From a virus: a stretch of 64,000 nucleotides of DNA. The stretch lies in the UHGV virus genome UHGV-1558314; one strand, given 5' to 3'. This document shows, piece after piece, positions 1-64,000 of this stretch; the stretch's first letter is position 1, and each line of letters opens with the position of its first letter. The position numbers and the translations under genes were made by a program. The notes beneath the pieces are model-generated. The model made no database searches. It was given only the letters and a program-made list of their open reading frames with translations, and had not been told where the DNA came from.

Positions 1-365
1 CAACGAGGCAAATAACGTTCAATGCATTCAACTGCAGGATTGGCTGTCATGTACCACGCAAATTCTGCAGCAGCATTGAGCTTTTTCCATGGTCGTACGT
101 CAATCTTGATTTGCCGCTGTGAAGGGTCCTGAATAACTACAGACACATTCAGCAATTCTTTTGTTCGAGTCACTGTTTGTGCATTGTTGCCCTTTGATTC
201 TACAAACTCACCTCTACAATGAAGTTCATACAAAATTGAGCGAAATGCTTCTGTTGCAGTGTTTTCAATGATTGTCGTCTGTTGATAACATAAATTTGAC
301 GACAATGCTTCAGCATCATTGTACTTTATGCTGTCATTGTCATAAGGTGAATTTTTTGTGTGCAT
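1..365 (-). CDS. partial ORF running off window start (first ~121 aa); weak thymidylate-synthase-family-like region
   Basis: Own minus-strand translation: ATG at 365-363, open to position 1 (MHTKNSPYDNDSIKY...RPWKKLNAAAEFAWYMTANPAVECIERYLPR). Absent from ORF track because truncated. EFxWY resembles the ELLWF/ELEWY helix of ThyA/pyrimidine hydroxymethylases, recalled from memory only. Confidence 0.4.
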   Translation of the reverse strand, partial: MHTKNSPYDNDSIKYNDAEALSSNLCYQQTTIIENTATEAFRSILYELHCRGEFVESKGNNAQTVTRTKELLNVSVVIQDPSQRQIKIDVRPWKKLNAAAEFAWYMTANPAVECIERYLPR

Positions 366-389
366 ATTTTGGGATGTTTGTTTTTGTTA

Positions 390-1484
390 TCATACAACGA
401 CGGTATCTCGTTTGCAATCTGTTCTGTCGAATATCGAGCAACAATATGATGCAGATTGCTCTTTGATTGCAATAGCTTCGTCATTGTCAAGTGATGAAAT
501 ACCATCTATGTATGCTTTTGTATTGCCAGCGATGTCATCATTTGTTAGCAATGCTGCACGACGTTCAGTACCAAAGAAGCCAAAGCACAATTGACGCTGC
601 AATGCTTCACGAGAAATCTTGTCATCAAACTCGGATTTCATGTGTTGCATAAATTCGACAATATCATCAATGTCGCATTGAGTAAAGTCAATGTACAATT
701 TATGCATGTACTTGAATCGTTTGTAGTCTGTTGCAAGAATTTCTGGGTGCACAATGAACAACGTCTTTTTGCTGTCTATTGGATTTGCAATGACTGACGC
801 TTGAACATAATCAACAAGCACGCCAGATTCACGAAGTTGCTCAACTGTTTTGCCAAATATATGCCCAAACGTGTCATCAAACCACTTCAAGTATACTTCG
901 TTGTCTTCATCTTTTGATGCGCCAACAATGTAAATCTCATTGACTCCAAGCGCTTTAAGACGAGTGTCAGATAGCATCGTGTTCAATTGATGCTGCACAT
1001 ACAGCATTGGGCTGCTATGCAAAACTGTTTTGACAATCTCACAAGCAATGTCCATATATGCATAGTCAAGCTTTGCAGATTTTGACACATACACTGCACG
1101 TTGCTGCAATGGCTCAATTGCTGAGCATGTGGTCACAAAGTTGCCAACACATTCTGCTACTGCAATGTCATGCAAGTCATCTGCAATGTACACAATACTT
1201 GACAAGTCATCAAATGTTTGAACAAGTTGCTGAAGCTTTGTTTTGTAATTGCAGAGCATCAATGACTTGATGTTGCAATTGCCAAGCATTGTCTTGATGA
1301 GTCGTTGACCTGCTTCAGTGCTGTCACCAGAAATGACATGCACATCGCAGTCAAACCAGTTCAACATGTCGATTGCATGCCGAACGCCATATTGCATTTG
1401 TTTTGCGAACTTGCCAGATTCATTGAACAGCATTTCACCTGACATAATGCCGTCAAAGTCACATACGATTTGAAGTCTGTCCAT
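390..1484 (-). CDS. HAD-superfamily phosphatase, KdsC-like N-terminal domain plus uncharacterised C-terminal domain
   Basis: HAD motifs VCDFDGIM (DxDG), ISGDS, IADDLHD in the first ~165 aa; pattern resembles KdsC/YrbI sugar-phosphate phosphatases. Confidence 0.55.
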   Translation of the reverse strand: MDRLQIVCDFDGIMSGEMLFNESGKFAKQMQYGVRHAIDMLNWFDCDVHVISGDSTEAGQRLIKTMLGNCNIKSLMLCNYKTKLQQLVQTFDDLSSIVYIADDLHDIAVAECVGNFVTTCSAIEPLQQRAVYVSKSAKLDYAYMDIACEIVKTVLHSSPMLYVQHQLNTMLSDTRLKALGVNEIYIVGASKDEDNEVYLKWFDDTFGHIFGKTVEQLRESGVLVDYVQASVIANPIDSKKTLFIVHPEILATDYKRFKYMHKLYIDFTQCDIDDIVEFMQHMKSEFDDKISREALQRQLCFGFFGTERRAALLTNDDIAGNTKAYIDGISSLDNDEAIAIKEQSASYCCSIFDRTDCKRDTVVV

Positions 1485-1488
1485 GTTG

Positions 1489-1821
1489 CTACAATTTTGA
1501 AGTTAAGTCAATTCGAATTTTGTCTGCGTTGCTTTGGTCAACAAATCTGTCATCAAAGAAACATTCAACTACGACAAGCTTCTTTGAATTCACAAATTCG
1601 ATTAGCGATTTTTGCATTGCATCAAGTTGCTTCATGCATTTACAAAAGCTGCTGTATGACATGATTTGCTTTGGTAACATATCAAATGCGTCTGCAATTC
1701 GCTGATGAGCAATCTTTTTTGATGTTGCAATAATGACATCTGCTTTGTTGTCATTTGCATGATTGCCAAATATCGCAATATGGTAAACTTTCATTGTATG
1801 AGTGATTTTGCTGTTATACAT
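1489..1821 (-). CDS. hypothetical protein
   Basis: 110-aa ORF packed between neighbours; start may be internal (MKVYHIAIFG). Confidence 0.4.
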   Translation of the reverse strand: MYNSKITHTMKVYHIAIFGNHANDNKADVIIATSKKIAHQRIADAFDMLPKQIMSYSSFCKCMKQLDAMQKSLIEFVNSKKLVVVECFFDDRFVDQSNADKIRIDLTSKL

Positions 1822-1848
1822 TTATGTTATATATGCACATTGTGCCAG

Positions 1849-4800
1849 TTAACAAATTGATGACGTGCCATCAGTATTTGCTACAACTGTCAATGCACTA
1901 TCAAACTCATCTTGTTGCAATACATGGTCAACTATGAGTGTTTTGCGAATTGCAGAAAGCTTGGTAAGCAACTGCATCAACACTTGCTGATAATTGATAT
2001 TGTTGACATCATGCTCAGCGCCAACAATCTGCCCATTGCTAAGCTTGCCACTGATTTCGTCAATGAGCAAGATGTTGCCCACTTTGTTTAAGCGTTGAGT
2101 CAAAATGAGATGCACGATTGCAAGACCTGCGAAAGTTCCTTCCATGCCAGACATTTGACTTACACTTCGAATTGACTTCGAGCCCATCAAGTCAATCATC
2201 TTCAACACATTGTTGTCATTGATGTCAAAGAACACTCGGTAGTTCAATGAATCCAGCAAATCATTGAGCTGTGCATTCAGTGATGTTGCAATTGCTGCAA
2301 AGACATATGAAACTAAGCCTCGTTTGCTTGTGCACTGCTTATATGCATTGTACACCAAGTTTGCAATGTTCCACTTTTTCGAAGCTTGCAAATCTTTCTT
2401 GAGAGCTTCAATTCGCACATTGTTTGCTGATAAGTCTGCTTGCATTGTTGCAATTTCTGCATTGATGCTTAGCAGTTTTGAGTTCGCTTCAGTTTCATGC
2501 TGCTTAGCATCATCAATGTCGACTTGCAATGCAGCATTTGTTGTAATATGCTGCTGAGTTTGCTGTGCATGTTCAAGTGCAAATGCTGCAGCAGTCTTAT
2601 CAATCTCAAGTTGTTTAAGCGCAGACTCATATGTCGCTTTCTTATCATACTCTGCTTGAGCAATTTCAAGTTCAGCATTTATTGCAGCCAGTTCTGATTC
2701 TACTGTAGATTTTGATTGCAATACATCTTGCTTTGCTTGTTCAGCTTTACGTTTGATGTCTGCAAGTTGATTTGTGATATCTGCAATTTGCATTTTGACT
2801 GCTTCGACTTCAAGCAATGTTGCTGCAGTAGCCATTGGTTGTGCAATGAATGCATCTAAGTCTCTTTGCGCATTGACTACAGTTCTCTGCAAATCATTGA
2901 GCTTTTCTGCATGCATGTCATATGCTGCTTTGTGTGCTGGATTCAGTGCAGCAATTATTGCATTTGAATCTGTAACATCTATGATTGCTGCTTGCAGTTG
3001 CTCAATTTCATACTTCAAATTGCCAATTTTGACAACATTCTCATTGAATTGCTCTGTCTTTTGCGCACATTCTTGACGCAACTTAGCAAGCTCAGTTGAC
3101 AACCACAGCTTGTATGCTTGTCCTGTGCCAGATGTCAAGTCATTTGTACATACAGGGCATTTGTCGTTTTCAAGTTGCTTTTGCTTGTCTATAACATTGT
3201 CGATGTTTGTTTTTGCAGCAGATATTTCTGTTCTAAGTGCATTTTGAACAGTGTTGATGTCTTCAATTTGCTTTTGCAAAGCATCTATTTTTGCCCGAGT
3301 GTTTGCATTGTACGACTTGCCAAGATTTATCAGCACAGAATCAATGTGCTGCTTTGCTGCATCATATGCAAGCTTTGATTCATCAAGCTTTGTTCTGTAC
3401 AATGACTCTGCATGCGCAACTTCTTTCTGCACTTTTGCAGATAGCTCATTCTGTTTTGTAAGCAGCTCAGCATATGTATTGTGCAGCTGTGAGCCAGATG
3501 CTATGACATTTGTGTATGCTGTATTAGCTTCATTGTCAATATTAGTGAGTTGCTGCTCAATCTGTGCTTTTGCTGTTTGCAACTTAGACATATCTTGCAA
3601 TGCAAGTGCAGCAATGTCAAGCTCAACTTTGTGAATCTTTGCAATGATGCCATCGATATTTGCTGTTGCATCTTCTATAGTTAAGATGTCTGCAGGAATT
3701 TGATGTAGTTTCTTTGAGAGCTCTTCTACTTTTGCACGAGCTTTTGTAAGCTTCGCGGACCACTCTTTTTGATTATCTTGTCGTAACTGCAAAGAGTAAT
3801 TGAGTTCATTGCAAGTTGTATTGAGAGACTCAAGTTCTGCTTTTATTGCAACATCAGTCAATGCGGGCTTACTAAGGCCATCAAACAATGCAGCCTTTGC
3901 AGCATCATTAGAATTGCCAAGCTGTACAAATGTATTGATGCCAAGAGTATCAAGTAGCCAGTCATTCAATGAATTTGAGTCCATTGCAATGATTTGGTCA
4001 AGTAGTGTCTGATTGATACAAACATATCGCGACAATTCCCAGATAGAGCCAAAGATTGCATATAGCGTGTCTTTGATTTCATGCTGCGGCACTACGTAGT
4101 CATCTGACAATCTTACAAGCTGAACAGTCTCATTGACTGCTGACACGTTATCTCGCCATGAGCCATCTGCATTTATTCGAGAACCTCGTTTGAATTTGCG
4201 TTCAAGTGTTCGAATCAATTTGTAGTGAACATTTTGACCTGCTACTACATGCACAAAGACACAAGAAGCTTCAAGCTTATCATATGACTCATTGTCAATC
4301 AATTTGTCATTGAAGTATGTCAAAGCGTTCTGCTTTGTTGCTGCAGAAGACTGTTCAGCGTCAATAAAGCCAGTCAGCAGCCATTTGATAAGTCTGAAGA
4401 TTGTAGTCTTGCCATTGCCATTGTTGCCTCTAACTTGTGTAAGCTGTGCAAGATTGTCAAAGCTGACATCAACATCTTTCAATGCCATGAACTGATTTGC
4501 TTTAACATTTTGAATGACATATTTTGCAACTTCAGTGTCAAAAGACAATTTATCAATTTGTTCATCAATCAATGACTTGAACATGTCAACAAACTGCTGA
4601 GCATCTTCAGTAGCAACTATGGCATTGCGTTCAATGTATGCATTGACCCAGTCAAGTGCAGCGTCTTTAAGCCATTCAGCAGTTTGAACCTTTTGCAGCA
4701 AATTGTCGCCATTTGCGTCTACAGCATTGATTGAATCAATGACAGCAGAATCATACAGAATGTCAATTGCAGCAACAACATATGAACTTACAAGATTCTG

Positions 4801-5775
4801 TGCAATGCGCTCAACAATACCAGACAGTTCGGGCTTTGTGACCTTTGACTTGATTTTGATTTTATTGATGCGGCCAGGGTTGATGAGTGCAATCTTGTCT
4901 GTTTTGACATCATTATCAATTGTGATTGTATGATAATGCACAAGCTGCTCAAGTGGATGCCACTCTACCACAATTCGCTTGTTGTCAATATCGATGTCAA
5001 GCAAGTTGTAGCCATGTTCTGCAGTACCATGCTGTATTGCAGTGTCATTCAACAAATAGTCGCCTTCACCAAAATCTCTGACAATTGGCGAGCCGCAATA
5101 TGTTAATGTCTTATCACCAGCAACCCATATTGCATGCTTATGAATGTCACCCATTGCAACAAAGTTGCTATTAAATTGCATTGCATCTATACGACTGTCA
5201 TTGTCACCACGAACAATACAATCATCAAAGTTGACACAATTCTTTACAGGGTCATGGAACAGCTCAATGACACACATTGATGACAATGCTGCAATCTGCG
5301 ATTCATCAAGTGATGCCCAAGGCGAATATGTGCCACCAGACCACTTCTCATTTTGAGCCCATACTGCAGCAGCAAAACCAGGTGCAAGCAGTTCAACTCT
5401 TGAACTGTTGATATACTTGATTCGCTTGTCATCAATTGCAGTTACAAGCTTGTCAATGCTATCTGTCCACTGCATTTGTGAACCATCACCAGCATCAAAT
5501 GTGTTATCACGTTGCTTCAAATCATGATTGCCAGCAGTAATGACAATTTGAAGCTTGTCATTGACTTCAAGCATGCCTTTGAGCAGCTTAACAAACAGCG
5601 ACTCTTCAAGTGAATTGCTATTCCAATGCTCAAACACGTCGCCGACAATGAATACAAACTCAACTGACTTTGCTTTGTCAATTAGTTGTTTGTTGATGTG
5701 CTCATATTCTACGAAACGTCGTAAATGACCTTGTCGAACATTATATTGAATGTCTGCTATGTGAAGTGCTTTCAT
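1849..5775 (-). CDS. fused Mre11/SbcD-like nuclease and Rad50/SbcC-like ATPase
   Basis: N-terminal metallophosphoesterase motifs (LHIADIQ, GDVFEH, GNHD, GDIHKH); Walker A GNNGNGKTT; long coiled coil with CPVC zinc hook; C-terminal signature SGMEG, Walker B LLIDE, H-loop DHV. Confidence 0.8.
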   Translation of the reverse strand: MKALHIADIQYNVRQGHLRRFVEYEHINKQLIDKAKSVEFVFIVGDVFEHWNSNSLEESLFVKLLKGMLEVNDKLQIVITAGNHDLKQRDNTFDAGDGSQMQWTDSIDKLVTAIDDKRIKYINSSRVELLAPGFAAAVWAQNEKWSGGTYSPWASLDESQIAALSSMCVIELFHDPVKNCVNFDDCIVRGDNDSRIDAMQFNSNFVAMGDIHKHAIWVAGDKTLTYCGSPIVRDFGEGDYLLNDTAIQHGTAEHGYNLLDIDIDNKRIVVEWHPLEQLVHYHTITIDNDVKTDKIALINPGRINKIKIKSKVTKPELSGIVERIAQNLVSSYVVAAIDILYDSAVIDSINAVDANGDNLLQKVQTAEWLKDAALDWVNAYIERNAIVATEDAQQFVDMFKSLIDEQIDKLSFDTEVAKYVIQNVKANQFMALKDVDVSFDNLAQLTQVRGNNGNGKTTIFRLIKWLLTGFIDAEQSSAATKQNALTYFNDKLIDNESYDKLEASCVFVHVVAGQNVHYKLIRTLERKFKRGSRINADGSWRDNVSAVNETVQLVRLSDDYVVPQHEIKDTLYAIFGSIWELSRYVCINQTLLDQIIAMDSNSLNDWLLDTLGINTFVQLGNSNDAAKAALFDGLSKPALTDVAIKAELESLNTTCNELNYSLQLRQDNQKEWSAKLTKARAKVEELSKKLHQIPADILTIEDATANIDGIIAKIHKVELDIAALALQDMSKLQTAKAQIEQQLTNIDNEANTAYTNVIASGSQLHNTYAELLTKQNELSAKVQKEVAHAESLYRTKLDESKLAYDAAKQHIDSVLINLGKSYNANTRAKIDALQKQIEDINTVQNALRTEISAAKTNIDNVIDKQKQLENDKCPVCTNDLTSGTGQAYKLWLSTELAKLRQECAQKTEQFNENVVKIGNLKYEIEQLQAAIIDVTDSNAIIAALNPAHKAAYDMHAEKLNDLQRTVVNAQRDLDAFIAQPMATAATLLEVEAVKMQIADITNQLADIKRKAEQAKQDVLQSKSTVESELAAINAELEIAQAEYDKKATYESALKQLEIDKTAAAFALEHAQQTQQHITTNAALQVDIDDAKQHETEANSKLLSINAEIATMQADLSANNVRIEALKKDLQASKKWNIANLVYNAYKQCTSKRGLVSYVFAAIATSLNAQLNDLLDSLNYRVFFDINDNNVLKMIDLMGSKSIRSVSQMSGMEGTFAGLAIVHLILTQRLNKVGNILLIDEISGKLSNGQIVGAEHDVNNINYQQVLMQLLTKLSAIRKTLIVDHVLQQDEFDSALTVVANTDGTSSIC

Positions 5776-5795
5776 ATTCTAAATGAGATTTAGAT

Positions 5796-5846
5796 TATAT
5801 GTTGATATTGTACAACATGCAAAATGCACTTGCATTTTGATACAAC
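5796..5846 (-). promoter_or_regulatory. conserved intergenic motif copy 1 (putative promoter/operator) upstream of the Mre11-Rad50 gene
   Basis: tatatgttgatattgtacaacatgcaaaatgcacttgcattttgatacaac; contains palindrome TTGTACAA and inverted repeat CAAAATGCA-ct-TGCATTTTG; ends ~50 bp upstream of ATG 5775. Confidence 0.45.
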
Positions 5847-5854
5847 GTATGTCA

Positions 5855-6199
5855 TTATTTTGCAAGCATTTTGCTGATTGCATCTATCACAGTTTCACTG
5901 AGCAAGTAGTAGACAACGCTTATCAGCAATGATATCAGTACTGCAGCTGTGATAAATTGCAACGCATTCACAATTGCACGCACAAATGTTATCTGTGTGT
6001 TGTATGCAAGCACTATGCAGCATAGCACAATAATGACACACCAGACTACAATTGCATATGCAGGCATCAATGAATTTGTCCATATGCAGTACAATACAGT
6101 AGTTAGCATCAAAAATGCTATTGCTCTGATGACTGACACAATGATGTCTATGTAGAGCTTCATTACACGTAAATGAACTCTTGGCTTATGCGGTTTCAT
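5855..6199 (-). CDS. small multi-pass membrane protein (GtrA-like size and topology; speculative)
   Basis: Three to four hydrophobic helices. ORF-track start 6265 overlaps upstream gene; likely start at 6199 or 6163. Confidence 0.4.
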   Translation of the reverse strand: MKPHKPRVHLRVMKLYIDIIVSVIRAIAFLMLTTVLYCIWTNSLMPAYAIVVWCVIIVLCCIVLAYNTQITFVRAIVNALQFITAAVLISLLISVVYYLLSETVIDAISKMLAK

Positions 6200-7437
6200 C
6201 ATGACTTTATGTACAATTCTGCAAGTTGTCTGGTGTACAATCGTGGATTGTGATATGCTTTCCAATATGCAGTAGACTTTATTGCAGCAAGAATCTCATC
6301 ATAATGTTTGACTGCTTTTGCTACAACTTCATCAAGTACATGCAAATCTTCTACACTAACAAGCAGCCATTTTTCTACAATGTCAATGAATTCTTGATTG
6401 CAATTAAAGCCATATTTGTAGTTGCAAGTGTCAAGTACAAGTGGGATGCAGTCATTTGTCAGTGCTTCAAAAAATCTACGAAGACTGAAACAATTCTCAT
6501 CATATGATGGAATGCTTAATGTAAACTTGGCAGTCTTGATGAGTTGCAAATACTCTTCGTATGGAATCAGAGGACCATTGTGCTTCCACTGATTGTTATG
6601 TCGTCTTGTTGTGTACTTGAACAAAAACTTTGAACTGTCAAGCTCACAAAGATGGTCCATGCGTAAAATGTAGTTATAGCGGTCTCTTCTATCAGGCCAA
6701 CTGTCAGTCATTGCAAACACAAAGTCTCTTTGCTTGTCACATTTTGCTGACATACCTCTATGCTGACACATGCAGTACCAATATTGCTGCGATGGACTGA
6801 ACTCGAACTTTGAGTGATGCTCACTGCCATCTTTGCATTGTTGAACGTAAATATTGTCAGGCACAAAGTGAAAGTAGAAATGTCGAATTTGCAAGCCGTC
6901 AATGTAGTCAAGCTTATGCTGCAATGGGTCCTCACAGAAATTGTAACACTGAATGCGTTTTGCTGCAGCATACTCAGCAACTATGAATGTGCACACCCAT
7001 TGCAATGCGATGTCTTCACTCTTCAAAAAGTCAACAAGTGGCTCATTTGGATGCGCTTTGCATTCATTGAACATTTTGTACCACTTGCATTGCTCCATGT
7101 CATACTTGGAGACTGTATTGCCATTAAAAAATGACACAGTATCAATTTTGAATGCCTCAAGTTGTTTATGCACAATGTCGATTGCTTGTGCATATGTGAC
7201 AGTCTCATCAGACATTATTTGTGCAAACTTGATTGGATGCGCATGCAAATTTGCAATTGTGTCTGCTGACATTTTGCGCTGTGTATGATAATCGACATAC
7301 AAAAACTGACACTTGTCTGTAAGCAATTCAAGCATTGCTACAGATTTCCATCGAATTGCTTGAAAGAAATTGAAGTGCGCAGTTTGAAAAATGAGATGCG
7401 TAGGCTTGTCAGAATGAGTCAAAGTTTGCATGGACAA
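6199..7437 (-). CDS. glycosyltransferase-like protein (exostosin/GT47-like C-terminal motif), paralog of 10462..12018
   Basis: Shared motifs with 10462..12018: NFCEDPLQHKLDYID, PSQQYWY, FTLSIPSYDENCFSLRRFFEALTNDCIPLV (S-x-R-x-x-E...C-I/V-P-L-V). Confidence 0.5.
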   Translation of the reverse strand: MSMQTLTHSDKPTHLIFQTAHFNFFQAIRWKSVAMLELLTDKCQFLYVDYHTQRKMSADTIANLHAHPIKFAQIMSDETVTYAQAIDIVHKQLEAFKIDTVSFFNGNTVSKYDMEQCKWYKMFNECKAHPNEPLVDFLKSEDIALQWVCTFIVAEYAAAKRIQCYNFCEDPLQHKLDYIDGLQIRHFYFHFVPDNIYVQQCKDGSEHHSKFEFSPSQQYWYCMCQHRGMSAKCDKQRDFVFAMTDSWPDRRDRYNYILRMDHLCELDSSKFLFKYTTRRHNNQWKHNGPLIPYEEYLQLIKTAKFTLSIPSYDENCFSLRRFFEALTNDCIPLVLDTCNYKYGFNCNQEFIDIVEKWLLVSVEDLHVLDEVVAKAVKHYDEILAAIKSTAYWKAYHNPRLYTRQLAELYIKS

Positions 7438-57300: not shown

Positions 57301-58119
57301 ATATGCATCAATGAATGGCAAATGTGACAATGACATCGTTGGCGTCCACTCTGTCATTTGAGCATCTGACACATACAAGCCGACATATCGATGCTCACCT
57401 GGAGTGACATCTTCAAATTCAAATGACAAGTTGACAATTTGCGAGCATATCAGACCATTGTCTCGCCAAGCTTCTGATAATGCAGCATCAAAGTCATATG
57501 GCGACAATTCTGCGTCATCAATGTTTGGCGCACCAAGTGTGACATCTTTGTATTGCGCAGTGACTGCATCAAAGCCCCATACACGACTTTGCTGATTGCT
57601 GCTATGTGACACAAAACATGCAGCTTCAGACATTGATGCTTGATGCTTTGTCAACTCAACAATGTCTTTCAATCGCCATTGATGAACAAGTACAGCGTCT
57701 TTTATGATGCTTTGCCAATCTGTTGCAGTTAAGTTATCTGAACGCAATACAACAAAGTATTGTGGCATATCTGTCTTTGACAGCAACAATGGTGCAAAAT
57801 ATCTGAACACATTGAGTCGCTTCGTATATCTGCAGCCACACACATATGTCATATCGAACTGTTTTGCAAGTTCGTCATTTTGCTGCATGCCAATGAGTGT
57901 GCTTTGTTGCACATTGCAAATCTTCGATATGCCCCACTTAAGACGAGACCACATTGCAGCAGCATTGTCTGCATATGAGCCTGCATTCGAGTCAAACTCA
58001 AGTGAACTTGAATTTGTAAGTGGCGCAAACTTGACTTTGCTATACATGTCTACAATGCATTGTACATCGCCAGACAGCAATGTATTTGTGCGAAACAGTG
58101 CTTTTGATTCGTGTATCAT
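54322..58119 (-). CDS. large virion/tail protein, function unknown
   Basis: 1265-aa ORF between the fibre-like and TM-rich giant proteins. Confidence 0.5.
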   Translation of the reverse strand: MIHESKALFRTNTLLSGDVQCIVDMYSKVKFAPLTNSSSLEFDSNAGSYADNAAAMWSRLKWGISKICNVQQSTLIGMQQNDELAKQFDMTYVCGCRYTKRLNVFRYFAPLLLSKTDMPQYFVVLRSDNLTATDWQSIIKDAVLVHQWRLKDIVELTKHQASMSEAACFVSHSSNQQSRVWGFDAVTAQYKDVTLGAPNIDDAELSPYDFDAALSEAWRDNGLICSQIVNLSFEFEDVTPGEHRYVGLYVSDAQMTEWTPTMSLSHLPFIDAYVSGDALGLLTYIDGYTVKLPTLLDSSKLYAETVVASFSANDGLKPNTFTRKRTLDLELTGKMTPGEKFEIIVDGNVDVQVVCQMKDAGIDGERLYAWEDGQTVDDNQFLFGLNWQESIDRFIEAFKNASAKSTYDYTVTVLPSSKYSAESNPRLRIETNCNSNDVDIEVLLPWSMYKKSTYSSQTVQFDAAVTVNNSLVISATMRQYLQTANALLLHLNDTDTIKVRIRQLLTLSEIDESLTTTDSLVVLVDDVLPDIAVKIAFDMLQIQAAQARLCRLHDVYDWSGFYESELRLTTNTEFDIDAWATNMTAAAEKSKRMQYIDAIAQHVKQLQGNSQPNAIKTLESKDSALIFSDSVYDRFDDLAVNDDNKPNIHQCHFAAVEATDALNKQYRANNSIAFNCTGFAPYERLTGIALDSFNYSWFVEGSGCPEYVLQHQHAKLLCKSYATEAIDIKEFADTTIDVFDTKLTHKFAVTDKAVLEVPCYTYCYAKPDHITAFALFKGVEYSVSSSYVGWRFAVVRVDSDSVFECKPQLVINNKFKTLTVVLPFKVIDQSLVNLDGILQTTAIDKSIYYDNSSIVALDDNKIAQVDVAFNCYPLSKTVASFPYKGTTVDKPIVINDDGSIDIAIKVIALQNLFSIKDIFIVGTNVKLDITNWTSAVAYKTAFVQLFDVIEVNLLNDTEAIIWVKDIIPSIEYESGETYSWPQHMIQTELAVTFDNDVDAFIEGSVRPRILESMMTSIVMQVMPTMQTMIHRFAPIAFYNQRDAINALDGIAVMQKFMQQQIIDADPANASPTNKLLVNLTRYGTYCLPELTQVTQWSALANDESLQHKVAFAQSSSVHLWALIDNEVLTVEQVISPLSTQLSRVWLDGAFEHIEGPTVFELCMFAAIMSVAATKTAELQLPDVAGAEQRLSLVAALAKLLGDNAKSMQYANYLIAKLLQPTLTFYDVFTGQLIMPIALNRDSSNSYITVQFEAQQGAARCIVEWQ

Positions 58120-58124
58120 GTCTC

Positions 58125-61100
58125 TTATTTGTGTACTTTTATGCCTGCGCCTTCAAGCAATTCGAAGATGTCAATCAATATCGACATTACAGGATTTGAC
58201 GGGTCATCAGCAAACTCTGCATACTTGTCTGCGCCTTCTACAGGATTGCTTTCAGTGCCAAGCTTGAGCATAGGCTGCATTACACCAGCAGTTGCAGGCA
58301 ATGCATTCATTGAGCTGAAGTTGTCTTTGTCAGTGTCCTTGTTCAAGAATGACTCAAGAGTGTCGAACAGCTTCTTGAGTGATTGAACAAGCGGCCCTTC
58401 TATCGTTGCTGCAACTTGTTTGAGTCCTGCAATCATTTCTTGTGATTGCAATGATTTATATTGAATGTCGAGCTTTGTCAACTTTTCAAAGTTGAGTGAA
58501 TTGATTGCAGTTTGAATGTTCTCAATGTTTGTTGCAGTAGATTGCAGTTCTTTATTACGTGTATCCAGGTTGCCATCAGCAAGAACATCAAAGAATGCGT
58601 CAAGAGATTTACCAACTGTTTGCACTCTATATGTGTTAATGCCTTGCATGCCATCAAACATTGATACGATAGCGCCTACTGCAGCTTTTGCTGTTGGCGC
58701 AAATGTCTTTTCAATGTAATTGACATCAATCTTTGATTGTGAGAAGCCTGTTATGAGATTGACAAGTGGGTCAAGAATTGTACCAATGCCGTCAAAGCCC
58801 TTCTTTGCTTGTTGCATGCGTTTCTTGAAATCTTCACGTTCAGCAGCATTTATGCAAGCATTTACAAGAGAATCAATGACTGATTCAAGACCTGCGCCAA
58901 CTTTTGGTAATGCTTCAGACAAATCAATCGTGCCTACGACTACAAGTTCACCATTTCGAGCTTCATATTTTGGGAACACAAGAGTCGCCATGCCCTTGAT
59001 GCCCTCAGACAATTGATATACGAGATTGCCAAGACCTGACAGCGCGTTGATTGCTTTCTTAGCACCCTTTGCTTTGTCTTCAACGCCATCAAGAGCATCA
59101 ACCATGACCTCAATGAACGTTGCAAGATTGTTGCCAATGCTTGCAAGTTCAGCATCAGTCAAGTTGACTTCTGACATTGTTTTGATTGTCTTTGCAAAGC
59201 TAAGCATTGACAAGCCTACAGCACCAAGTGCTGTGGCGCCAGCAAGCGTAAATGGCAATGTGAATGGGTTGCCTGTCACAGTAGCAACGCCTACTAAAGC
59301 TGCAACAGTGCCAGCAATTGATGCAACATCAAGGTCTTTGACTGTCTGCATCTTTTCAAGTGCAGTAGCAAAAACATATGTTGCAGCACCAGTAGCTGCC
59401 ATAGCAGCTGCACCAAGCAATGCAAGTGGACCAACCAAGCCAAGCGCAGTTGCTGCAGCAGTTACAGTAACTACAAATGCACCAAGTGCAAGCATTGTAG
59501 TGCCATCAACAGATTGAGCTTTGACAAGAGCATTTGCATACATTGTAGTGCCGACTGCAGATAATACAAGTGCAGCGCCACCAAGCAACGCAGTCGCACC
59601 CATATTGCCCAGAATTGCAATTGCGCCAACATTTGCTGCAATAAACAAGCCCATCATGACAGCAGTCTCACCATCAACAGCATTTGCAATCAACAATGCG
59701 CCAGCAAGCAATGCAACGCCAACTGAGGTAATTATAAGCGCACCAGCAGCCATAAGCGGCGAGCCCTTGCTTGATAGAGCCATCAATGCTGCAAGTGCAC
59801 CAGTTACAACTGCAAGTGCTGCACCAGCTTTACCCATGTCTTCCCAATCAAGCAATTTATATGGCAACATTGCAATGCCAAGAATGCCAACTGCTGCAGC
59901 CATCACAATAACACCAGTAGCAATTGACAGCACTTGTTTGCTATCTTTTGCTACTCTTGTCATGACTGTAAATATCGTAGCAAGCACACCAATGCCTATG
60001 CCAGCTTTAATCATGTCTTCTTGCTCAACAATTCGCCAAGCAAATACGCCAAGTGCAAGTACACCAACCGCTGCAGCCATAGCAAGCACGCCTACACCAA
60101 GCTTTTGCATATCACCATCTTTGCCAGCAAGACGATTTGCGCCAGCCATTGCCAATGCAAGCGTAGTAATTGTTATTGCAGGCGCAAATGCATATGTGTA
60201 ATCAGGGATGAGTTCGTGCCAAGCCCAAATTGACAATGCAAGCACTGCTATTGAACCTGCAATCATCATCATTTGAGCGCCAATGCCACCCTTAAGATTT
60301 GAGCCCTCTGTCTGCATTTTGCTAAATGCTTCAGCATTACCTTTGCCAGCAAGCGTCATACCAAGACCTGCGCCGGCAGATGATATGCCATTTGCAAAGC
60401 CAATTGCAAGACCCAATGCAACAATGACACCGAAGATTAAGCCAACGGATTCCCAGCTTGCTTCCATCAATTCGCCTGCAGCAACCACTGCAAGCACAAA
60501 CAGAGCAATTGAGCCTGATAGCATCAGCATTTCTTTGCCCACTGCATTCTGCTGGCCTTTCTTGCCGCTGCCTGAACCAAACAACGATTCACCAGACAAT
60601 GCTTTGCCAAGTACCCAGATTGCTCCACTGACAGCAAGTAAAGCAACTGAGCCCATAGCAACACCGTCCCACGACACATTACTAAACAGCATCATTGACA
60701 ATGCGACCATGCTAAGTGCGCCTGCAATCATCATGACGTTCTTTGCACCAGCTGATGCATCTTTGTCAGTGATTTTGCCAATTGCCCAGTATGCTGCAAT
60801 GAATGTCATTGTGCCAAGCGTGAACATTCCAAGAGCTTCAAATGTCACAAGTTGGCCAAACGCCCATATTGTAAGACCCACAAGAGCAATTGCTGCAGCA
60901 GCTTTCATGACAACCTCTGTTGTTCTATCAAGAGATGCCACAAGTGATTCAACTTGGCTGACCATGTCAGCCACTGCAGTCATTGACTCTTTATGAGATT
61001 TCAGAGTTTCAGCAGCTTTCAAATACGAATCGACAAGCTTATTCAAGGCTGTCTCAAATCTTGGAGCAGCCTTTTCAAGCCTGTCGACAATCAAATCGAT

Positions 61101-61847
61101 AGCCTCAAGACCGCTTTCAAGCTGCAACCGTTTGACAGGCGACATATTTGTCAAAGAGTCAATGATTGTCGCAAAAGCAGTAGCTATCGTGCCCATTTTT
61201 GGGTCAATGTTGGGCGCATTGCTTGCATTGGCCTTGCTGTTTGCGATTGAGTCTTTTTCTTGACGTTCTGCAATGACGTCTGCAAATGTTGTCAAGTCAT
61301 CGAGTTTTGATGACATCAATGCAAAGATGTTGCGTTGATTTTCCTCGATAACTTCAAGATAGACTCTTACAAGGTCACAATGTTGTGTAAATTCAGTATG
61401 CTGTGATTCAACATGCTCTGCAATCACATCAAGCAACACAGAAGCATCTGATATGTTTGTTGCAGCAGCTTTGTTTTCAATATGCTCTGCAATGATTTCG
61501 AGCAATGCGTTTGTGTCAGACAATAATGCAGATACTGATGTTGCTGAAGATGATTCGTCTGTTTGCAGTTCAGATATGATTTGAGCAAGACCAGCAAACA
61601 TATTTGTTTCTGCACTCGAATCTTTTTCTTTCCATGATTGATACAAAACTGCACCAACAGTTGAGCACAATGACGCAACAATAGTGTCATTGCCAACAAT
61701 TGACATGAAAGTGTTTTCAAGCTTTGTCAGCTCATCATCACTGACATCAGTCGAAGATGCTGACGACGTGTCAGCATCTTCGAACTCTTGCCAGTTTGTT
61801 GGCTTGTCGCCTGTAGAATCGTAGACGTTTGTTTTGTCTTCAGCCAT
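58125..61847 (-). CDS. giant protein with N-terminal coiled coil and about 20 Ala/Gly-rich hydrophobic helices (tape-measure-like or membrane-spanning ejection protein)
   Basis: Residues ~330-900 are almost continuous hydrophobic A/G/L/V/I/M segments (e.g. AAAIALVGLTIWAFGQLV, IAGALSMVALSMMLF). Confidence 0.5.
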   Translation of the reverse strand: MAEDKTNVYDSTGDKPTNWQEFEDADTSSASSTDVSDDELTKLENTFMSIVGNDTIVASLCSTVGAVLYQSWKEKDSSAETNMFAGLAQIISELQTDESSSATSVSALLSDTNALLEIIAEHIENKAAATNISDASVLLDVIAEHVESQHTEFTQHCDLVRVYLEVIEENQRNIFALMSSKLDDLTTFADVIAERQEKDSIANSKANASNAPNIDPKMGTIATAFATIIDSLTNMSPVKRLQLESGLEAIDLIVDRLEKAAPRFETALNKLVDSYLKAAETLKSHKESMTAVADMVSQVESLVASLDRTTEVVMKAAAAIALVGLTIWAFGQLVTFEALGMFTLGTMTFIAAYWAIGKITDKDASAGAKNVMMIAGALSMVALSMMLFSNVSWDGVAMGSVALLAVSGAIWVLGKALSGESLFGSGSGKKGQQNAVGKEMLMLSGSIALFVLAVVAAGELMEASWESVGLIFGVIVALGLAIGFANGISSAGAGLGMTLAGKGNAEAFSKMQTEGSNLKGGIGAQMMMIAGSIAVLALSIWAWHELIPDYTYAFAPAITITTLALAMAGANRLAGKDGDMQKLGVGVLAMAAAVGVLALGVFAWRIVEQEDMIKAGIGIGVLATIFTVMTRVAKDSKQVLSIATGVIVMAAAVGILGIAMLPYKLLDWEDMGKAGAALAVVTGALAALMALSSKGSPLMAAGALIITSVGVALLAGALLIANAVDGETAVMMGLFIAANVGAIAILGNMGATALLGGAALVLSAVGTTMYANALVKAQSVDGTTMLALGAFVVTVTAAATALGLVGPLALLGAAAMAATGAATYVFATALEKMQTVKDLDVASIAGTVAALVGVATVTGNPFTLPFTLAGATALGAVGLSMLSFAKTIKTMSEVNLTDAELASIGNNLATFIEVMVDALDGVEDKAKGAKKAINALSGLGNLVYQLSEGIKGMATLVFPKYEARNGELVVVGTIDLSEALPKVGAGLESVIDSLVNACINAAEREDFKKRMQQAKKGFDGIGTILDPLVNLITGFSQSKIDVNYIEKTFAPTAKAAVGAIVSMFDGMQGINTYRVQTVGKSLDAFFDVLADGNLDTRNKELQSTATNIENIQTAINSLNFEKLTKLDIQYKSLQSQEMIAGLKQVAATIEGPLVQSLKKLFDTLESFLNKDTDKDNFSSMNALPATAGVMQPMLKLGTESNPVEGADKYAEFADDPSNPVMSILIDIFELLEGAGIKVHK

Positions 61848-61856
61848 AGTGTATCA

Positions 61857-62111
61857 TCAGAACTTTGGCAGTTCAAAATTGTTGTTGAACTTTGGCATTG
61901 GCAGACTTGTCGGCATCATTGACTTTGCTTTGCGCATGTACGCATCTTGTTGAGCCTTGATGCTTTTATGAGTGCTGCTTTGTGAATCACCATCGCCCTT
62001 TCGAGCCTCTTCTTCAGTCTTGATAAGCTCAAGAACATCATCAAGTAGCCATTGATATTCATAATATGGCAATGCGTCCAATTCAGAAAACTGAAGAGGG
62101 CATTTTTGCAT
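61857..62111 (-). CDS. hypothetical small protein (start trimmed to ATG at 62111)
   Basis: ORF-track start 62255 overlaps upstream gene by 128 nt; internal ATG at 62111 (MQKCPLQF...) lies 17 nt after the upstream stop. Confidence 0.4.
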   Translation of the reverse strand: MQKCPLQFSELDALPYYEYQWLLDDVLELIKTEEEARKGDGDSQSSTHKSIKAQQDAYMRKAKSMMPTSLPMPKFNNNFELPKF

Positions 62112-62127
62112 GATGTATATGCGATTC

Positions 62128-63150
62128 TTACAAAAGTTCCGATTCGAGATTTTGAACTGGTTGAAAAATCTGCTTGATTCCCTCTGGAAATCGAAACGGG
62201 GCTTCACCCTCCATGTGACACTTCGGGCAAGTGAACTTGATATTGTTAGATGCAAGAATCATGCACTTAGACAGAATCTTCAGTTTAAGCGGCAATTCTT
62301 TGAATGCATCCATTGCTTGGAACGATTGACAAATTTGCTCAGCTTTCTTGACATTAAGACCTCGCCAATCAGGTGTAAGCCATTGAGCTGCAAGAATATA
62401 TGTCTTTGCATTCATCAATGTATCTTTGTCAAGTGTTCGCATGTACTCTGCAAAAACTTTGCCAACACCAATTGTCGACGGCTTGAGTACGAGTTCGCCA
62501 TACGAACGAGTTTGAACTCGATAGCAGCCGGTTTCAGAATCAATGTATTTGTCCATTGATTCATCGGGCTCATCCCAAGTCATGTTATCAGCAGTCAAGT
62601 CAAGCTTGAAATTATGCTTGCAAGTGCCTGATGAAATTTCCAGCGTAATTGGGTTTGTCAGCTCAGAGTTCTCAGGGAATGTGAGGTCGTGAATCAACAT
62701 TATTAAGCGCCACTTGTCGTGTTCGTATACATCATCAACTGACCAATGATTCATGCCGGACTTGCTGACACATCGAACACACACCTTAACAATGTCGTTC
62801 AAATATGTTGCTGCTTCAGCTGGATTTGCATTGTCATCAAGATTAGACCAATGACGAATTTCACCTGCTCGGCAAGCTCGATAGATAATTTGCAAATCAC
62901 TTGGGTACAGTCGACCTTGCTTAGCAAGCTTCGTCATGTCAACATTGAACCAGCCAGTGTCTGTAACTTCTGATTGACGTGCTCTTTCTGCAATACGCTC
63001 TTGAGCTACTTCAGTTGCAGCGTCAATTGCGCTGTCATTGATTTTTGTAGCTGCTTCAGCTTCTTCTACTGCAGATGCAAGTGGATTGTTTCGACCTGCA
63101 TTCTCACCACCATCTGCTGGAATGCTAAGACGTTTTCTTTCTTGTGGCAT
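62128..63150 (-). CDS. hypothetical protein (start trimmed to ATG at 63150)
   Basis: Internal ATG (MPQERKRLSIP...) avoids a 74-nt overlap with 63182..63886. Confidence 0.45.
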   Translation of the reverse strand: MPQERKRLSIPADGGENAGRNNPLASAVEEAEAATKINDSAIDAATEVAQERIAERARQSEVTDTGWFNVDMTKLAKQGRLYPSDLQIIYRACRAGEIRHWSNLDDNANPAEAATYLNDIVKVCVRCVSKSGMNHWSVDDVYEHDKWRLIMLIHDLTFPENSELTNPITLEISSGTCKHNFKLDLTADNMTWDEPDESMDKYIDSETGCYRVQTRSYGELVLKPSTIGVGKVFAEYMRTLDKDTLMNAKTYILAAQWLTPDWRGLNVKKAEQICQSFQAMDAFKELPLKLKILSKCMILASNNIKFTCPKCHMEGEAPFRFPEGIKQIFQPVQNLESELL

Positions 63151-63181
63151 ATTGTAATGTGTTTGAATGGTTTTGTTTGTT

Positions 63182-63886
63182 TTATATATTTGACAACTGT
63201 TTGCGTTGTAAAATTGCATGACCGCAGTCATATACTGCAACATAGCCAGCATCAATCATCTCTTGCTCATTTTGTCCGCAGTCTTCAACATGTTCTTTTG
63301 TCTTCAAATGACACCAGTGTTTGCAAATAGTTGACTTGTCATCTGACAATTGTGGATTGAACGCGAAGTCAGTTGAGTCTACTGGTTCGCCTGCAAGATG
63401 CTTTCGAATGACATCGATGACTTCATTGTCATCCATCCATTCAAATATTGTTATGCAAGTGTAGCCATGCTTAAGAGCAAGCTGAGTTTTGTCGAAGTGA
63501 TAGAATTTGCTAACATGCTTATTGTGTGTAGTACGGCCAATTAAATATGCAAAACCATATGTTGAATTGTGTGACCAAGTTGGATTGATTTCAATCAATA
63601 ATTTGCAATGTTCATTACTGTAATTGAGGTCATATGACCATCGCTCAAGATTGACATCATCAAGCCCACAATCAATCCCAAGTTCTTGCAGCAATTTGTC
63701 ATGCCACCAATGGTTTGCTCGTGATTTTACATGACCTTGAGCATCACGACATTTAGCAGTCATACAAAAATATGGGACACCATAGCGTTGCATGTTAGTT
63801 GACGCAATTTTTTGCAAATCGCCTGCAGCAGACCCATATTTTTGTCGTTTTGTTGCAACTGCTACTGCAATATTGCCAAATGACAT
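63182..63886 (-). CDS. homing-endonuclease-like protein (short RYG repeats plus Vsr/DUF559-like nuclease domain); paralog of 21853..22989
   Basis: C-terminal ~170 aa are about 90 percent identical to 21853..22989 (WWHDKLLQELGIDCGLD...KLLIEINPTWSHN...); two QKYG/QRYG repeats at N-terminus. Confidence 0.5.
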   Translation of the reverse strand: MSFGNIAVAVATKRQKYGSAAGDLQKIASTNMQRYGVPYFCMTAKCRDAQGHVKSRANHWWHDKLLQELGIDCGLDDVNLERWSYDLNYSNEHCKLLIEINPTWSHNSTYGFAYLIGRTTHNKHVSKFYHFDKTQLALKHGYTCITIFEWMDDNEVIDVIRKHLAGEPVDSTDFAFNPQLSDDKSTICKHWCHLKTKEHVEDCGQNEQEMIDAGYVAVYDCGHAILQRKQLSNI

Positions 63887-64000
63887 CTATATACTTTAAT
63901 GTACCAAACTGGAAATAGGCTATCCTAATGCAAATATAGGATTTTTCTTTGAAAATCCATATTCAAGGTAAAATACAAGTCATTAAAAGTCAACCATAAC

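What the first reader, a model, noticed from the sequence alone, without database searches (positions are those of the whole stretch)
1..64000. Apparent absence of the tetranucleotide GATC
Close reading of about 15 kb spread across the window (1-6000, 40000-41000, 55000-56000 and scattered lines in 20-36 kb and 58-61 kb) found no GATC, while AATC, CATC and TATC are frequent. At roughly 40 percent GC about 3.5 GATC per kb are expected, so roughly 50 in the portion read. Other 4-6 bp palindromes (AAGCTT, CTGCAG, GAATTC, ATCGAT, TGTACA) are present. Strong GATC avoidance is a signature of selection by GATC-specific restriction or Dam-dependent host systems.
Basis: seen in the sequence. Interest (0 to 1): 0.7.

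Follow-up and report, generated by a model that had tools for sequence, protein, structure and literature searches.

The report
Phage genome purged of GATC and CTAG
This 64-kb piece of a large uncultivated phage, probably of a Bacteroidota host, has lost almost every copy of GATC and CTAG, which is best read as a strong example of the known strategy of deleting the sites that host restriction enzymes cut.

Summary
GATC occurs once (position 49919) against 176-233 expected. A null that keeps every protein sequence and the codon usage still expects 130 GATC and 56 CTAG in coding regions. The words are avoided in all three reading frames by context-dependent synonymous codon choice. Close relatives (96% DNA identity) also lack both words. 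A neutral-substitution simulation predicts about 12 new GATC and 9-10 new CTAG in 20 kb since divergence; 0-1 are seen. CGCG, nearly absent in the relatives, rose in the window strain at exactly the neutral rate (7 predicted, 7 observed), which serves as an internal control. A 56%-identity relative keeps GATC, and the distant Tenacibaculum phage PTm1 lacks GATC but not CTAG, so the trait is lineage-specific. The window belongs to a roughly 175-kb myovirus with no Shine-Dalgarno sites, BACON domains and Bacteroidota-phage relatives. Host restriction avoidance is the best explanation, but the host and its enzymes were not identified. This is a new member of a known kind. Side findings: a likely cytosine hydroxymethylase plus glycosyltransferase module, and a poly-G frameshifted gene cassette.

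The parts
1..64000 (.). Window-wide near-absence of the palindromic tetranucleotides GATC and CTAG, one copy each
   Evidence: O/E 0.006 and 0.014 against a second-order Markov model. The codon-shuffle null expects 130 and 56. The depletion is uniform in all eight 8-kb bins.
49919..49922 (.). The only GATC. On the coding (minus) strand it is GTA-GAT-CTT (Val-Asp-Leu) in ORF 49650-50141.
   Evidence: close relatives L001 and L002 read GAC here, so the site is a strain-specific synonymous C-to-T change and not a conserved functional site.
28844..28847 (+). The only CTAG. It lies in the codons GGG-CTA-GCG of the second copy of a conserved leader, immediately before a G7 tract.
   Evidence: The sister contig has its few CTAG copies at other positions.
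3754..63365 (.). 29 CGCG sites (O/E 0.59). This third palindrome is nearly absent from sister strains and partly regained in the window strain.
   Evidence: relatives L001-L005 have 0-1 CGCG against 3-15 expected. The window has 7 in the orthologous ~20 kb, equal to the neutral prediction of 7.0 +/- 2.5.
1..15265 (-). Context, inferred: a candidate second anti-restriction layer. It comprises the 5' part of a cytosine-hydroxymethylase-like ThyA paralog (about 1-490, running off the window edge), a KdsC-like phosphatase (390-1484), three glycosyltransferase-like genes (6199-7437, 7419-8594, 10462-12018), a P-loop kinase-like gene (9844-10416) and a dCMP deaminase (13153-13878).
   Evidence: The function in DNA modification is inferred and not demonstrated.

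Best explanation
The window is part of a large (about 175-180 kb), probably virulent, uncultivated myovirus whose host is most likely a member of Bacteroidota. Its genome has been purged of GATC and CTAG by continuing natural selection. Any copy of these words is a target for sequence-specific host nucleases, most likely orthodox Type II restriction enzymes of the MboI/DpnII (GATC) and BfaI/MaeI (CTAG) kinds. A genome with no target is immune whatever its methylation state. The purge is implemented mostly by neighbour-dependent synonymous codon choice in all three frames. New sites that arise by mutation are removed quickly, so only rare, young, strain-specific sites are seen. Shown: the depletion, its independence from protein and codon composition, its recency and its lineage specificity. 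Inferred: that the selective agent is host restriction, and the host phylum.
For: (1) Magnitude: 1 GATC against 176-233 expected and 1 CTAG against 73-233; no other 4-mer falls below O/E 0.33, and no other strong 5- or 6-mer avoidance was found. (2) Not compositional: the codon-shuffle null expects 130 and 56. (3) Mechanism of avoidance: Asp before a C-starting codon is GAC 73 to GAT 1, against 590 to 678 elsewhere. Ile after a G-ending codon is never ATC (0 of 151, against 28% elsewhere). Ser after an xGA codon is AGY 12 to TCN 0. Leu CTA is never followed by G (0 of 72). AGN never follows xCT (0 of 72). No TAG stop is preceded by C. (4) Ongoing selection: residual sites are strain-specific. 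Applying the observed substitution spectrum at random predicts 12 +/- 3 new GATC and 9-10 +/- 3 new CTAG in about 20 kb, against 0-1 and 0 observed, and none of 500 simulations went as low. CGCG matches the neutral prediction exactly (7.0 predicted, 7 observed), so the simulation is calibrated. (5) Lineage specificity: sister strains have 0-1 GATC and 0 CTAG. One 56%-identity relative has 0 GATC against 44 expected and 4 CTAG against 30. Another has 33 against 51 and 13 against 25. PTm1 has 1 GATC against 125 but 107 CTAG against 95. MA9V-1 and Lak-B5 are mildly or partly depleted. (6) Genome-wide in the sister contig: 2 GATC and 4 CTAG in about 86 kb sampled. (7) No DNA methyltransferase domain in the window ORFs or in 25 further ORFs. 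(8) Host inference: 1 of 64 genes has a Shine-Dalgarno-like motif; BACON domains are present; the nearest isolated relatives infect mostly Bacteroidota. (9) The required specificities exist in Bacteroidales: an active MboI-like GATC system in Prevotella intermedia (PMC5608340), M.BfaI for CTAG in B. fragilis (PMC5867850), and 6mA-GATC, 4mC-CTAG and 5mC-CGCG motifs in B. fragilis-group isolates (PMC10333322). (10) General precedent: near-complete elimination of orthodox Type II sites occurs in about a tenth of viral genomes, mainly non-temperate dsDNA phages (PMC6286503).
Against: The host is unknown. Exact-protein look-ups, a scan of 185,579 species genomes and a literature search for the sample accessions gave nothing. 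No cognate restriction enzyme has therefore been linked to this phage. The Bacteroidota promoter element TAnnTTTG is not enriched. The lineage seems to encode a cytosine hydroxymethylase and glycosyltransferases. If its cytosines are hypermodified, most classical Type II enzymes would already be blocked, and hmC coliphages were reported to show no site avoidance (PMC6286503). That would make a simple Type II explanation less complete. About half of the genome was not examined for phage-encoded methyltransferases or nucleases.
Confidence: 0.72

Rival explanations
1. The selective agent is a modification-dependent nuclease (Type IIM or IV, like DpnI or Mrr) rather than an orthodox restriction-modification system. 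The phage alternates between hosts that methylate GATC or CTAG (Dam-like, M.BfaI-like) and hosts that cut the methylated form. Only removing the word escapes both.
For: Site loss is the only strategy that defeats both methyl-sensitive and methyl-dependent enzymes; the pneumococcal DpnI/DpnII/DpnIII cassettes illustrate this (PMC12707154). In haloviruses that lack both GATC and CTAG, the known agents include Mrr acting on Dam-methylated GATC (PMC7230728). GATC as a Type IIM site is under-represented in all 46 phages whose hosts encode such enzymes (PMC6286503). GATC and CTAG methylation are patchily distributed among Bacteroidales isolates.
Against: Avoidance of modification-dependent sites is generally weak and is attributed to overlapping Type II sites (PMC6286503). 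Nothing in the sequence distinguishes this rival from orthodox restriction.
Confidence: 0.13
2. Self-immunity: the phage encodes its own GATC- and/or CTAG-cutting endonuclease to destroy host DNA, and it keeps its own genome free of these words instead of methylating them.
For: No protective methyltransferase was found. Endonuclease-like genes are present (HNH-like and homing-endonuclease-like hits). About half of the genome is unexamined.
Against: No restriction-endonuclease family domain was detected among 64 window ORFs or 25 further ORFs. The 56%-identity relative L008 keeps GATC, and PTm1 keeps CTAG, so any such enzyme would have to be gained and lost repeatedly. I know of no documented phage that uses this strategy without modification.
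Confidence: 0.05
3. Non-selective causes: mutational or repair bias (such as the very-short-patch-repair-type loss of CTAG known in enterobacteria), passive mimicry of host oligonucleotide usage, or an assembly or sequencing artefact.
For: CTAG is under-represented in many bacteria (general knowledge). The genome has an extreme dinucleotide bias, with TA at 0.56.
Against: Markov models that absorb di- and trinucleotide bias still expect 176 and 73 copies. An O/E of 0.006-0.014 is far below host-like depletion. Relatives with the same dinucleotide bias keep GATC (L008). Distant relatives have a normal CTAG count. Avoidance is symmetric over all three frames. The same result appears in independent assemblies from ENA, Logan and IMG/VR.
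Confidence: 0.03

Closest known systems
HF1-group haloviruses (HF1, HF2, Serpecor1, Hardycor2, HRTV-5/-7/-8)
   Same: Myoviruses whose genomes completely lack both GATC and CTAG. This is interpreted as escape from host sequence-specific defences (PMC7230728). It is the same pair of words, eliminated to the same degree.
   Different: Those are archaeal viruses of haloarchaea with GC-rich genomes of about 75 kb, and they also under-represent TGCA and CATG. Here the GC content is 41%, the proteins resemble Bacteroidota phage proteins, TGCA is about five-fold over-represented, and the genome is about 175 kb. No homology is implied; this is convergence.
Restriction-site avoidance in virulent dsDNA phages in general (Rusinov et al. 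2018, PMC6286503; from memory also Sharp 1986, Rocha et al. 2001, and Staphylococcus phage K, which lacks GATC)
   Same: Short palindromes typical of orthodox Type II sites are eliminated (compositional ratio below 0.1) in a probably non-temperate dsDNA phage.
   Different: In those studies the host and its restriction-modification repertoire are known; here they are not. Here the elimination coexists with a probable cytosine-hydroxymethylase pathway, a combination that the study reported as not showing avoidance in coliphages.
Tenacibaculum phage PTm1 (Shirahamavirus), a distant relative at about 22-26% protein identity
   Same: A large Bacteroidota myovirus with GATC essentially eliminated (1 against 125 expected in 50 kb) and CCGG, GGCC and CGCG strongly depleted. 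It also carries a gene annotated as a pyrimidine hydroxymethylase.
   Different: CTAG is at expectation in PTm1 (107 against 95). PTm1 lacks the extreme TG/CA/GC dinucleotide bias. It has a different avoided set, presumably reflecting a different host repertoire.
T-even-type hmC and glucosyl-hmC DNA hypermodification (relevant to the side finding only)
   Same: A ThyA-family paralog with Asp at the position that confers cytosine specificity, a dCMP deaminase, a nucleotide-kinase-like gene and a beta-glucosyltransferase-like gene.
   Different: The best structural-sequence match is MilA (CMP hydroxymethylase), not T4 gp42. No dCTPase was identified and there is no chemical evidence. T-even phages do not avoid restriction sites.

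Membership tests
Restriction-site avoidance in phage genomes | The avoided word is a short palindrome of the kind recognised by orthodox Type II enzymes | tested here: met
   GATC and CTAG are 4-bp palindromes. Enzymes for both are documented (MboI/DpnII/Sau3AI; BfaI/MaeI), with methyltransferases or restriction-modification systems of both specificities in Bacteroidales.
Restriction-site avoidance in phage genomes | The observed count is far below a composition-corrected expectation (ratio below 0.1, i.e. eliminated) | tested here: met
   O/E 0.006 (GATC) and 0.014 (CTAG) against a second-order Markov model; log10 P about -74 and -30.
Restriction-site avoidance in phage genomes | The depletion is not explained by protein sequence or codon usage, i.e. 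selection acts on the DNA word | tested here: met
   The codon-shuffle null expects 130 and 56 against 1 and 0 observed. Neighbour-dependent synonymous choice is seen in all three frames.
Restriction-site avoidance in phage genomes | The depletion is maintained by purifying selection and tracks lineage or host rather than being a fixed property of the clade | tested here: met
   Neutral simulation with CGCG as an internal control. Relatives differ in which words they avoid.
Restriction-site avoidance in phage genomes | The host encodes a cognate restriction enzyme | not testable with these tools
   The host was not identified. There is only literature evidence that such systems exist in the inferred host phylum.
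Restriction-site avoidance in phage genomes | Non-temperate lifestyle, where elimination is most common | tested here: inconclusive
   No integrase or repressor domain was found among 64 window ORFs plus 25 others, but only about half of the genome was seen.
Dam/MutH- or Dam-dependent host system as the cause | The host methylates GATC (Dam) and has a GATC-methylation-dependent nuclease, or the phage carries its own Dam | not testable with these tools
   No methyltransferase domain was found in the phage sequence examined. The host is unknown.
HF1-group haloviruses | Homologous gene content and a haloarchaeal host | tested here: not met
   The nearest relatives are Bacteroidota phages, the GC content is 41%, and TGCA is over- rather than under-represented. 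The resemblance is only in the avoided words.
Generic bacterial CTAG rarity (repair or structural bias) | Moderate depletion shared by all related genomes irrespective of host | tested here: not met
   CTAG is at expectation in PTm1 (1.13) and MA9V-1 (0.82), and at 0.52 in the 56%-identity relative L008. Here it is 0.014.
hmC-type DNA hypermodification (side finding) | A ThyA-family enzyme with a catalytic Cys and Asp at the E. coli TS Asn177-equivalent position (cytosine specificity) | tested here: met
   on the sister-strain gene L016:10980-12002, whose 5' part is window ~1-490.
hmC-type DNA hypermodification (side finding) | Modified cytosine actually present in virion DNA | not testable with these tools
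   This needs LC-MS of nucleosides or raw long-read signal data.

The most novel reading that the evidence does not exclude
The phage combines two anti-restriction layers that were thought not to co-occur: glycosylated 5-hydroxymethylcytosine DNA and total elimination of GATC and CTAG. On this reading the two purged words mark the host nucleases that cytosine hypermodification cannot stop, or that it provokes. Examples would be adenine-reading DpnII-like enzymes, which are unaffected by cytosine methylation of GATC, or context-specific modification-dependent enzymes. The strain-level regain of CGCG would then record a recent change in which enzymes still matter. A less likely variant is that the phage carries its own GATC/CTAG nuclease and relies on site absence for self-immunity.
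Probability: 0.15. Interest if true: 0.6.

Novelty: new member of a known kind. Interest (0 to 1): 0.33.

Why it matters
Taken alone, this is a clean, extreme and well-controlled example of a textbook phenomenon in an unstudied phage clade, not a new mechanism. It has three practical uses. First, the avoided set (GATC, CTAG, and CGCG in sister strains) is a fingerprint of the restriction repertoire of the unknown host, and it can be matched to Bacteroidales methylomes to predict that host. Second, strains at 96% identity differ in CGCG avoidance while both keep purging GATC and CTAG, which gives a rare view of how fast avoidance is gained or relaxed. Third, if the predicted cytosine hydroxymethylase and glycosyltransferases do modify the DNA, the phage would show that base hypermodification and site elimination can be complementary, contrary to what was seen in coliphages.

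Tried and rejected
These led nowhere:
- blastn of 7 kb against 50,697 phage records gave no match.
- Exact-protein look-ups for two window proteins were not on record.
- A scan of genome contigs with a baseplate-wedge alignment, hoping for a MAG-binned relative or a host clue, gave no confirmed hit.
- A literature search for the sample and contig accessions found 0 papers.
- TAnnTTTG, the Bacteroidota -7 promoter element, is not enriched: 63 matches against 59 +/- 7. It is uninformative, perhaps because the phage has its own sigma factor.
- There are no tRNA genes for host inference.
- The AlphaFold model of poly-G cassette gene 30332-30985 had mean pLDDT 35 and was unusable, so no fold search was run.
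- The search for an in-frame (G8) database version of that gene found only G6 versions called from an internal TTG.
- PDB and NCBIfam searches of the unknown proteins 12015-13181 and 13883-15265 gave nothing.

Considered and rejected:
- Compositional or codon explanation.
- Generic CTAG rarity.
- Assembly artefact: independent assemblies agree.
- Membership of the halovirus group.
- Phosphorothioate systems as a GATC-specific agent in gut Bacteroidales: there is no specific support in PMC12914056.
- TTTAAA is absent (0 against about 6-10 expected), but this is only borderline given the strong TA depletion and the number of hexamers tested.


Full report
**Observation.** The window is 64,000 bases at 41.1% GC. 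GATC occurs once, at 49919 inside AGATCT. Base composition predicts 233 copies, a first-order Markov model 201 and a second-order model 176, giving O/E 0.006 and Poisson log10 P about -74. The palindromes it listed are present: AAGCTT 58, CTGCAG 81, GAATTC 14, ATCGAT 19, TGTACA 37. CTAG also occurs only once, at 28844 inside GCTAGC, against 233 / 107 / 73 expected (O/E 0.014). The next most depleted 4-mer, GGAC, is at 0.33 and is strand-asymmetric, so it is compositional. No other 5- or 6-mer shows comparable avoidance. The depletion is uniform over all eight 8-kb bins.

**Not composition, not codons.** About 95% of the window is coding and 60 of 64 ORFs lie on the minus strand. I permuted synonymous codons among all genes, which keeps every protein sequence and the overall codon usage. 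This null expects 130 +/- 9 GATC and 56 +/- 7 CTAG in coding sequence, against 1 and 0 observed (z = -14.6 and -8.2). One search shows how the words are avoided:
- Asp before a codon starting with C is GAC 73 times and GAT once; elsewhere the split is 590 to 678.
- Ile after a codon ending in G is never ATC (0 of 151, against 28% elsewhere).
- Ser after an xGA codon is AGY 12 times and TCN never (TCN is 74% elsewhere).
- The Leu codon CTA is never followed by G (0 of 72).
- AGN codons never follow xCT (0 of 72).
- None of the 8 TAG stop codons is preceded by C.

Avoidance in all three frames through neighbour-dependent synonymous choice is the signature of selection on the DNA word.

**What the sequence is.** Profile searches identify a baseplate wedge protein, a tape-measure-like protein, a fused SbcCD-like nuclease, a gp32-like single-strand-binding protein, a helicase, a sigma factor, thioredoxin and BACON domains. 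The closest isolated phages, at only 21-27% protein identity, are Chryseobacterium MA9V-1/-2, Tenacibaculum PTm1/PTm5/pT24, Sphingomonas PAU, a Flavobacterium phage and the Prevotella Lak megaphages. Near-identical contigs exist in IMG/VR (174,628 bp) and in ENA/Logan assemblies of up to 181 kb. Only 1 of 64 genes has a Shine-Dalgarno-like motif, and the leaders are A-rich and G-poor. That is typical of Bacteroidota. A Bacteroidota host is therefore inferred, not shown. A genome scan, exact-protein look-ups and a literature search for the sample accessions gave no host, and the Bacteroidota promoter element TAnnTTTG is not enriched.

**Relatives.**

| Sequence | Relation to window | GATC obs / exp | CTAG obs / exp |
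|---|---|---|---|
| L001-L005 | sister strains, about 96% DNA identity | 0-1 / 24-65 | 0 / 10-28 |
| IMG/VR contig, about 86 kb of 174.6 kb sampled | sister strain | 2 in total | 4 in total |
| L006/L007 | 56% protein identity | 0 / 44 | 4 / 30 |
| L008/L009 | 56% protein identity | 33 / 51 | 13 / 25 |
| PTm1 | distant, isolated | 1 / 125 | 107 / 95 |
| MA9V-1 | distant, isolated | 58 / 87 | 145 / 176 |
| Lak-B5 | distant | 75 / 154 | 16 / 67 |

PTm1 also has CCGG, GGCC and CGCG at O/E 0.06-0.13. The trait is therefore not inherited with the virion genes. It is gained and lost lineage by lineage, as expected if it follows host defence repertoires.

**Ongoing selection, with an internal control.**
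- The window's one GATC (GTA-GAT-CTT) reads GAC in two sister strains.
- The one GATC in strains L002-L005 (CGA-TCA) reads CAA-TCA in the window.

The residual sites are therefore young and strain-specific. I took the roughly 20.3-20.5 kb aligned between the window and L001 or L002 (4.1-4.7% divergence). I re-applied the observed substitution spectrum at random positions. Neutral change predicts 12 +/- 3.3 GATC and 9-10 +/- 3 CTAG, against 0-1 and 0 observed, and none of 500 simulations went as low. CGCG is the control. It is nearly absent from all sister strains (0-1 against 3-15 expected). The window strain has 7 in the same region, at positions where the relatives read CGCA, TGCG or TGCA. 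The simulation predicts 7.0 +/- 2.5 (z = 0.0). So the window lineage behaves neutrally at CGCG while still purging GATC and CTAG. The polarity of the CGCG change (relaxation in the window strain, or purge in the others) is not settled without an outgroup. Either way, strains only 4-5% apart differ in a third avoided palindrome.

**Explanation.** The best-supported reading is classical restriction-site avoidance. Host nucleases that recognise GATC and CTAG destroy incoming genomes that carry these words, so variants without them win, and the site-free state is held by purifying selection.
- Near-complete elimination of orthodox Type II sites is found in about a tenth of viral genomes, mainly non-temperate dsDNA phages (PMC6286503).
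- The HF1-group haloviruses lack exactly this pair of words (PMC7230728).
- The needed specificities exist in Bacteroidales:
  - an active MboI-like GATC system in Prevotella intermedia (PMC5608340);
  - M.BfaI for CTAG in Bacteroides fragilis (PMC5867850);
  - 6mA-GATC, 4mC-CTAG and 5mC-CGCG motifs among B. fragilis-group isolates, with CGCG methylated in all Parabacteroides distasonis isolates (PMC10333322).
- No DNA methyltransferase domain was found in the window or in 25 further ORFs of the sister contig.

Not shown: the identity of the host and of the enzymes, and whether they are orthodox or methyl-dependent.

**Rivals.** A modification-dependent enzyme (DpnI/Mrr-like) is compatible with everything seen and cannot be separated from orthodox restriction here. 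A phage-encoded GATC/CTAG nuclease with self-immunity by site absence is not excluded, because about half of the genome was not seen. No restriction-enzyme domain was found, however, and the patchy distribution among relatives argues against it. Mutational bias, host mimicry and artefact are rejected by the Markov and codon nulls, by the relatives, and by agreement between independent assemblies.

**A complication worth recording.** The first ~490 bases of the window (minus strand) are the 5' part of a ThyA-family gene that is complete in the sister contig (L016:10980-12002).
- Its best solved-structure match is MilA, a CMP 5-hydroxymethylase (E 1.4e-22). That is ahead of thymidylate synthases (1e-13) and T4 dCMP hydroxymethylase (2e-11).
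- It keeps the catalytic cysteine.
- It has Asp where E. coli thymidylate synthase has Asn177, the switch to cytosine specificity. The phage's second, canonical ThyA has Asn at that position.
- Nearby lie a dCMP deaminase, a P-loop kinase-like gene, three glycosyltransferase-like genes (one resembling phage beta-glucosyltransferase) and a KdsC-like sugar-phosphate phosphatase.

This looks like a glycosyl-hmC DNA modification pathway, but that is inference only. If it is real, the coexistence with total site elimination is unusual, because hmC coliphages show no avoidance (PMC6286503). It would suggest that the purged words mark enzymes that cytosine modification does not stop. DpnII, for example, is unaffected by cytosine methylation of GATC.

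**Verdict.** This is a new, very clean member of a known phenomenon, so interest is modest. It gains some added value from the strain-level dynamics and from the possible combination with base hypermodification.

Noticed in passing
window 28024-31157 (G7 tracts at 28113-28119 +, 28849-28855 +, 29932-29938 -, 31060-31066 -): This is a hypervariable cassette. The only four G/C runs of 6 or more in 64 kb cluster here, although GG is at 0.38 of expectation. Three unrelated gene bodies (28137-28769, 28899-29327, 30332-30985) share a conserved leader, MKT(T/P)Q(L/F)WFERQQ(S/G)(I/L)AGG, that ends in G7. With G7 every leader is out of frame with its body; G8, G6/G9 and G8 respectively would fuse them into proteins of about 233, 173 and 259 aa. 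Synonymous differences between leader copies indicate that the leader frame is coding. Tract lengths differ in the sister contig (G6 against G7, G10 against G7, plus extra G8 and G9 tracts and about 2 kb of extra DNA). Database proteins correspond to the G6 state, and no frame-restored version was found. Candidate explanations are phase-variable or slippage-dependent expression of alternative fibre or receptor-binding proteins, as reported for poly-G tracts in Campylobacter phages (from memory).
   Followed up: partly
window 28024-28132 and 31047-31157: An inverted repeat of about 110-134 nt (97% complementary) covers the upstream region, the leader and the G7 tract of two inward-facing cassette genes and flanks about 2.9 kb. 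It could be a duplicated promoter-leader module or the ends of an invertible segment. The IMG/VR contig is broken (circularly permuted) inside this locus.
   Followed up: no
window 1-490 (minus strand, runs off the left edge); full gene in L016:10980-12002: A divergent ThyA-family gene is predicted to be a cytosine 5-hydroxymethylase. The best PDB match is MilA (E 1.4e-22), the catalytic Cys is conserved, and Asp sits at the E. coli TS Asn177-equivalent position. A canonical ThyA lies about 4 kb further on in the sister contig.
   Followed up: partly
window 390-15265 (minus strand): This is a sugar and nucleotide module: a KdsC-like phosphatase domain (390-1484), GT47/GT1-like (6199-7437), beta-glucosyltransferase-like (7419-8594), GT47-like (10462-12018), a P-loop kinase-like gene (9844-10416) and a dCMP deaminase (13153-13878), plus large unknowns (12015-13181, 13883-15265) with no hit in Pfam, NCBIfam or PDB. 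DNA glycosylation or virion or host glycan modification are both possible.
   Followed up: partly
whole window, and relatives L001-L009: The dinucleotide bias is extreme: TG 1.71, CA 1.72, GC 1.69; GG 0.38, CC 0.60, CG 0.62, TA 0.56. TGCA occurs 1173 times, one per 55 bp and five times the base-composition expectation. It also exceeds the codon-shuffle expectation (1136 against 724). The bias is shared by the 56%-identity relatives but not by PTm1, MA9V-1 or Lak-B5. In the neutral simulation TGCA is actively maintained (z +3.5 to +4.6) and TATA and TTAA are purged (z -3.2 to -4.5). The cause is unknown.
   Followed up: partly
window 5799-5814, 9576-9591, 13204-13219, 15287-15302, 15392-15407, 18876-18891, 21803-21818 and others (minus strand): The motif TGTACAATATCAACAT recurs just upstream of genes in the replication and nucleotide-metabolism half of the window: 11 matches with up to 3 mismatches against 2.7 +/- 1.7 expected, 10 of them on the coding strand. 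It is probably a phage promoter, perhaps read by the phage sigma factor at 46988-47884.
   Followed up: partly
window 21853-22989 and 63182-63886; L015:9797-10828: Paralogous homing-endonuclease-like (DUF7487, phrog_3339) genes are present in several copies. The copy at the 22-kb position of the sister contig is more similar (88% DNA identity) to the window's 63-kb copy than expected from synteny, which suggests mobile or exchanging endonuclease genes.
   Followed up: no
window, all positions: TTTAAA (the DraI/AhaIII site) is absent: 0 against 41 from base composition and about 6-10 from Markov models. It is also absent from the sister strains, but their expectation is about 1. It is present at expectation in the 56%-identity relatives. 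This is borderline significant given the TA depletion.
   Followed up: partly
window 30019-30086; 29352-29383; 30268-30317: A perfect 34-nt tandem duplication (ATCAAAACAACATCTTAGTTGTTTTGCATCTTGC, two copies), each copy containing a hairpin, and two strong perfect hairpins followed by T-runs (terminator-like), all inside the poly-G cassette.
   Followed up: no
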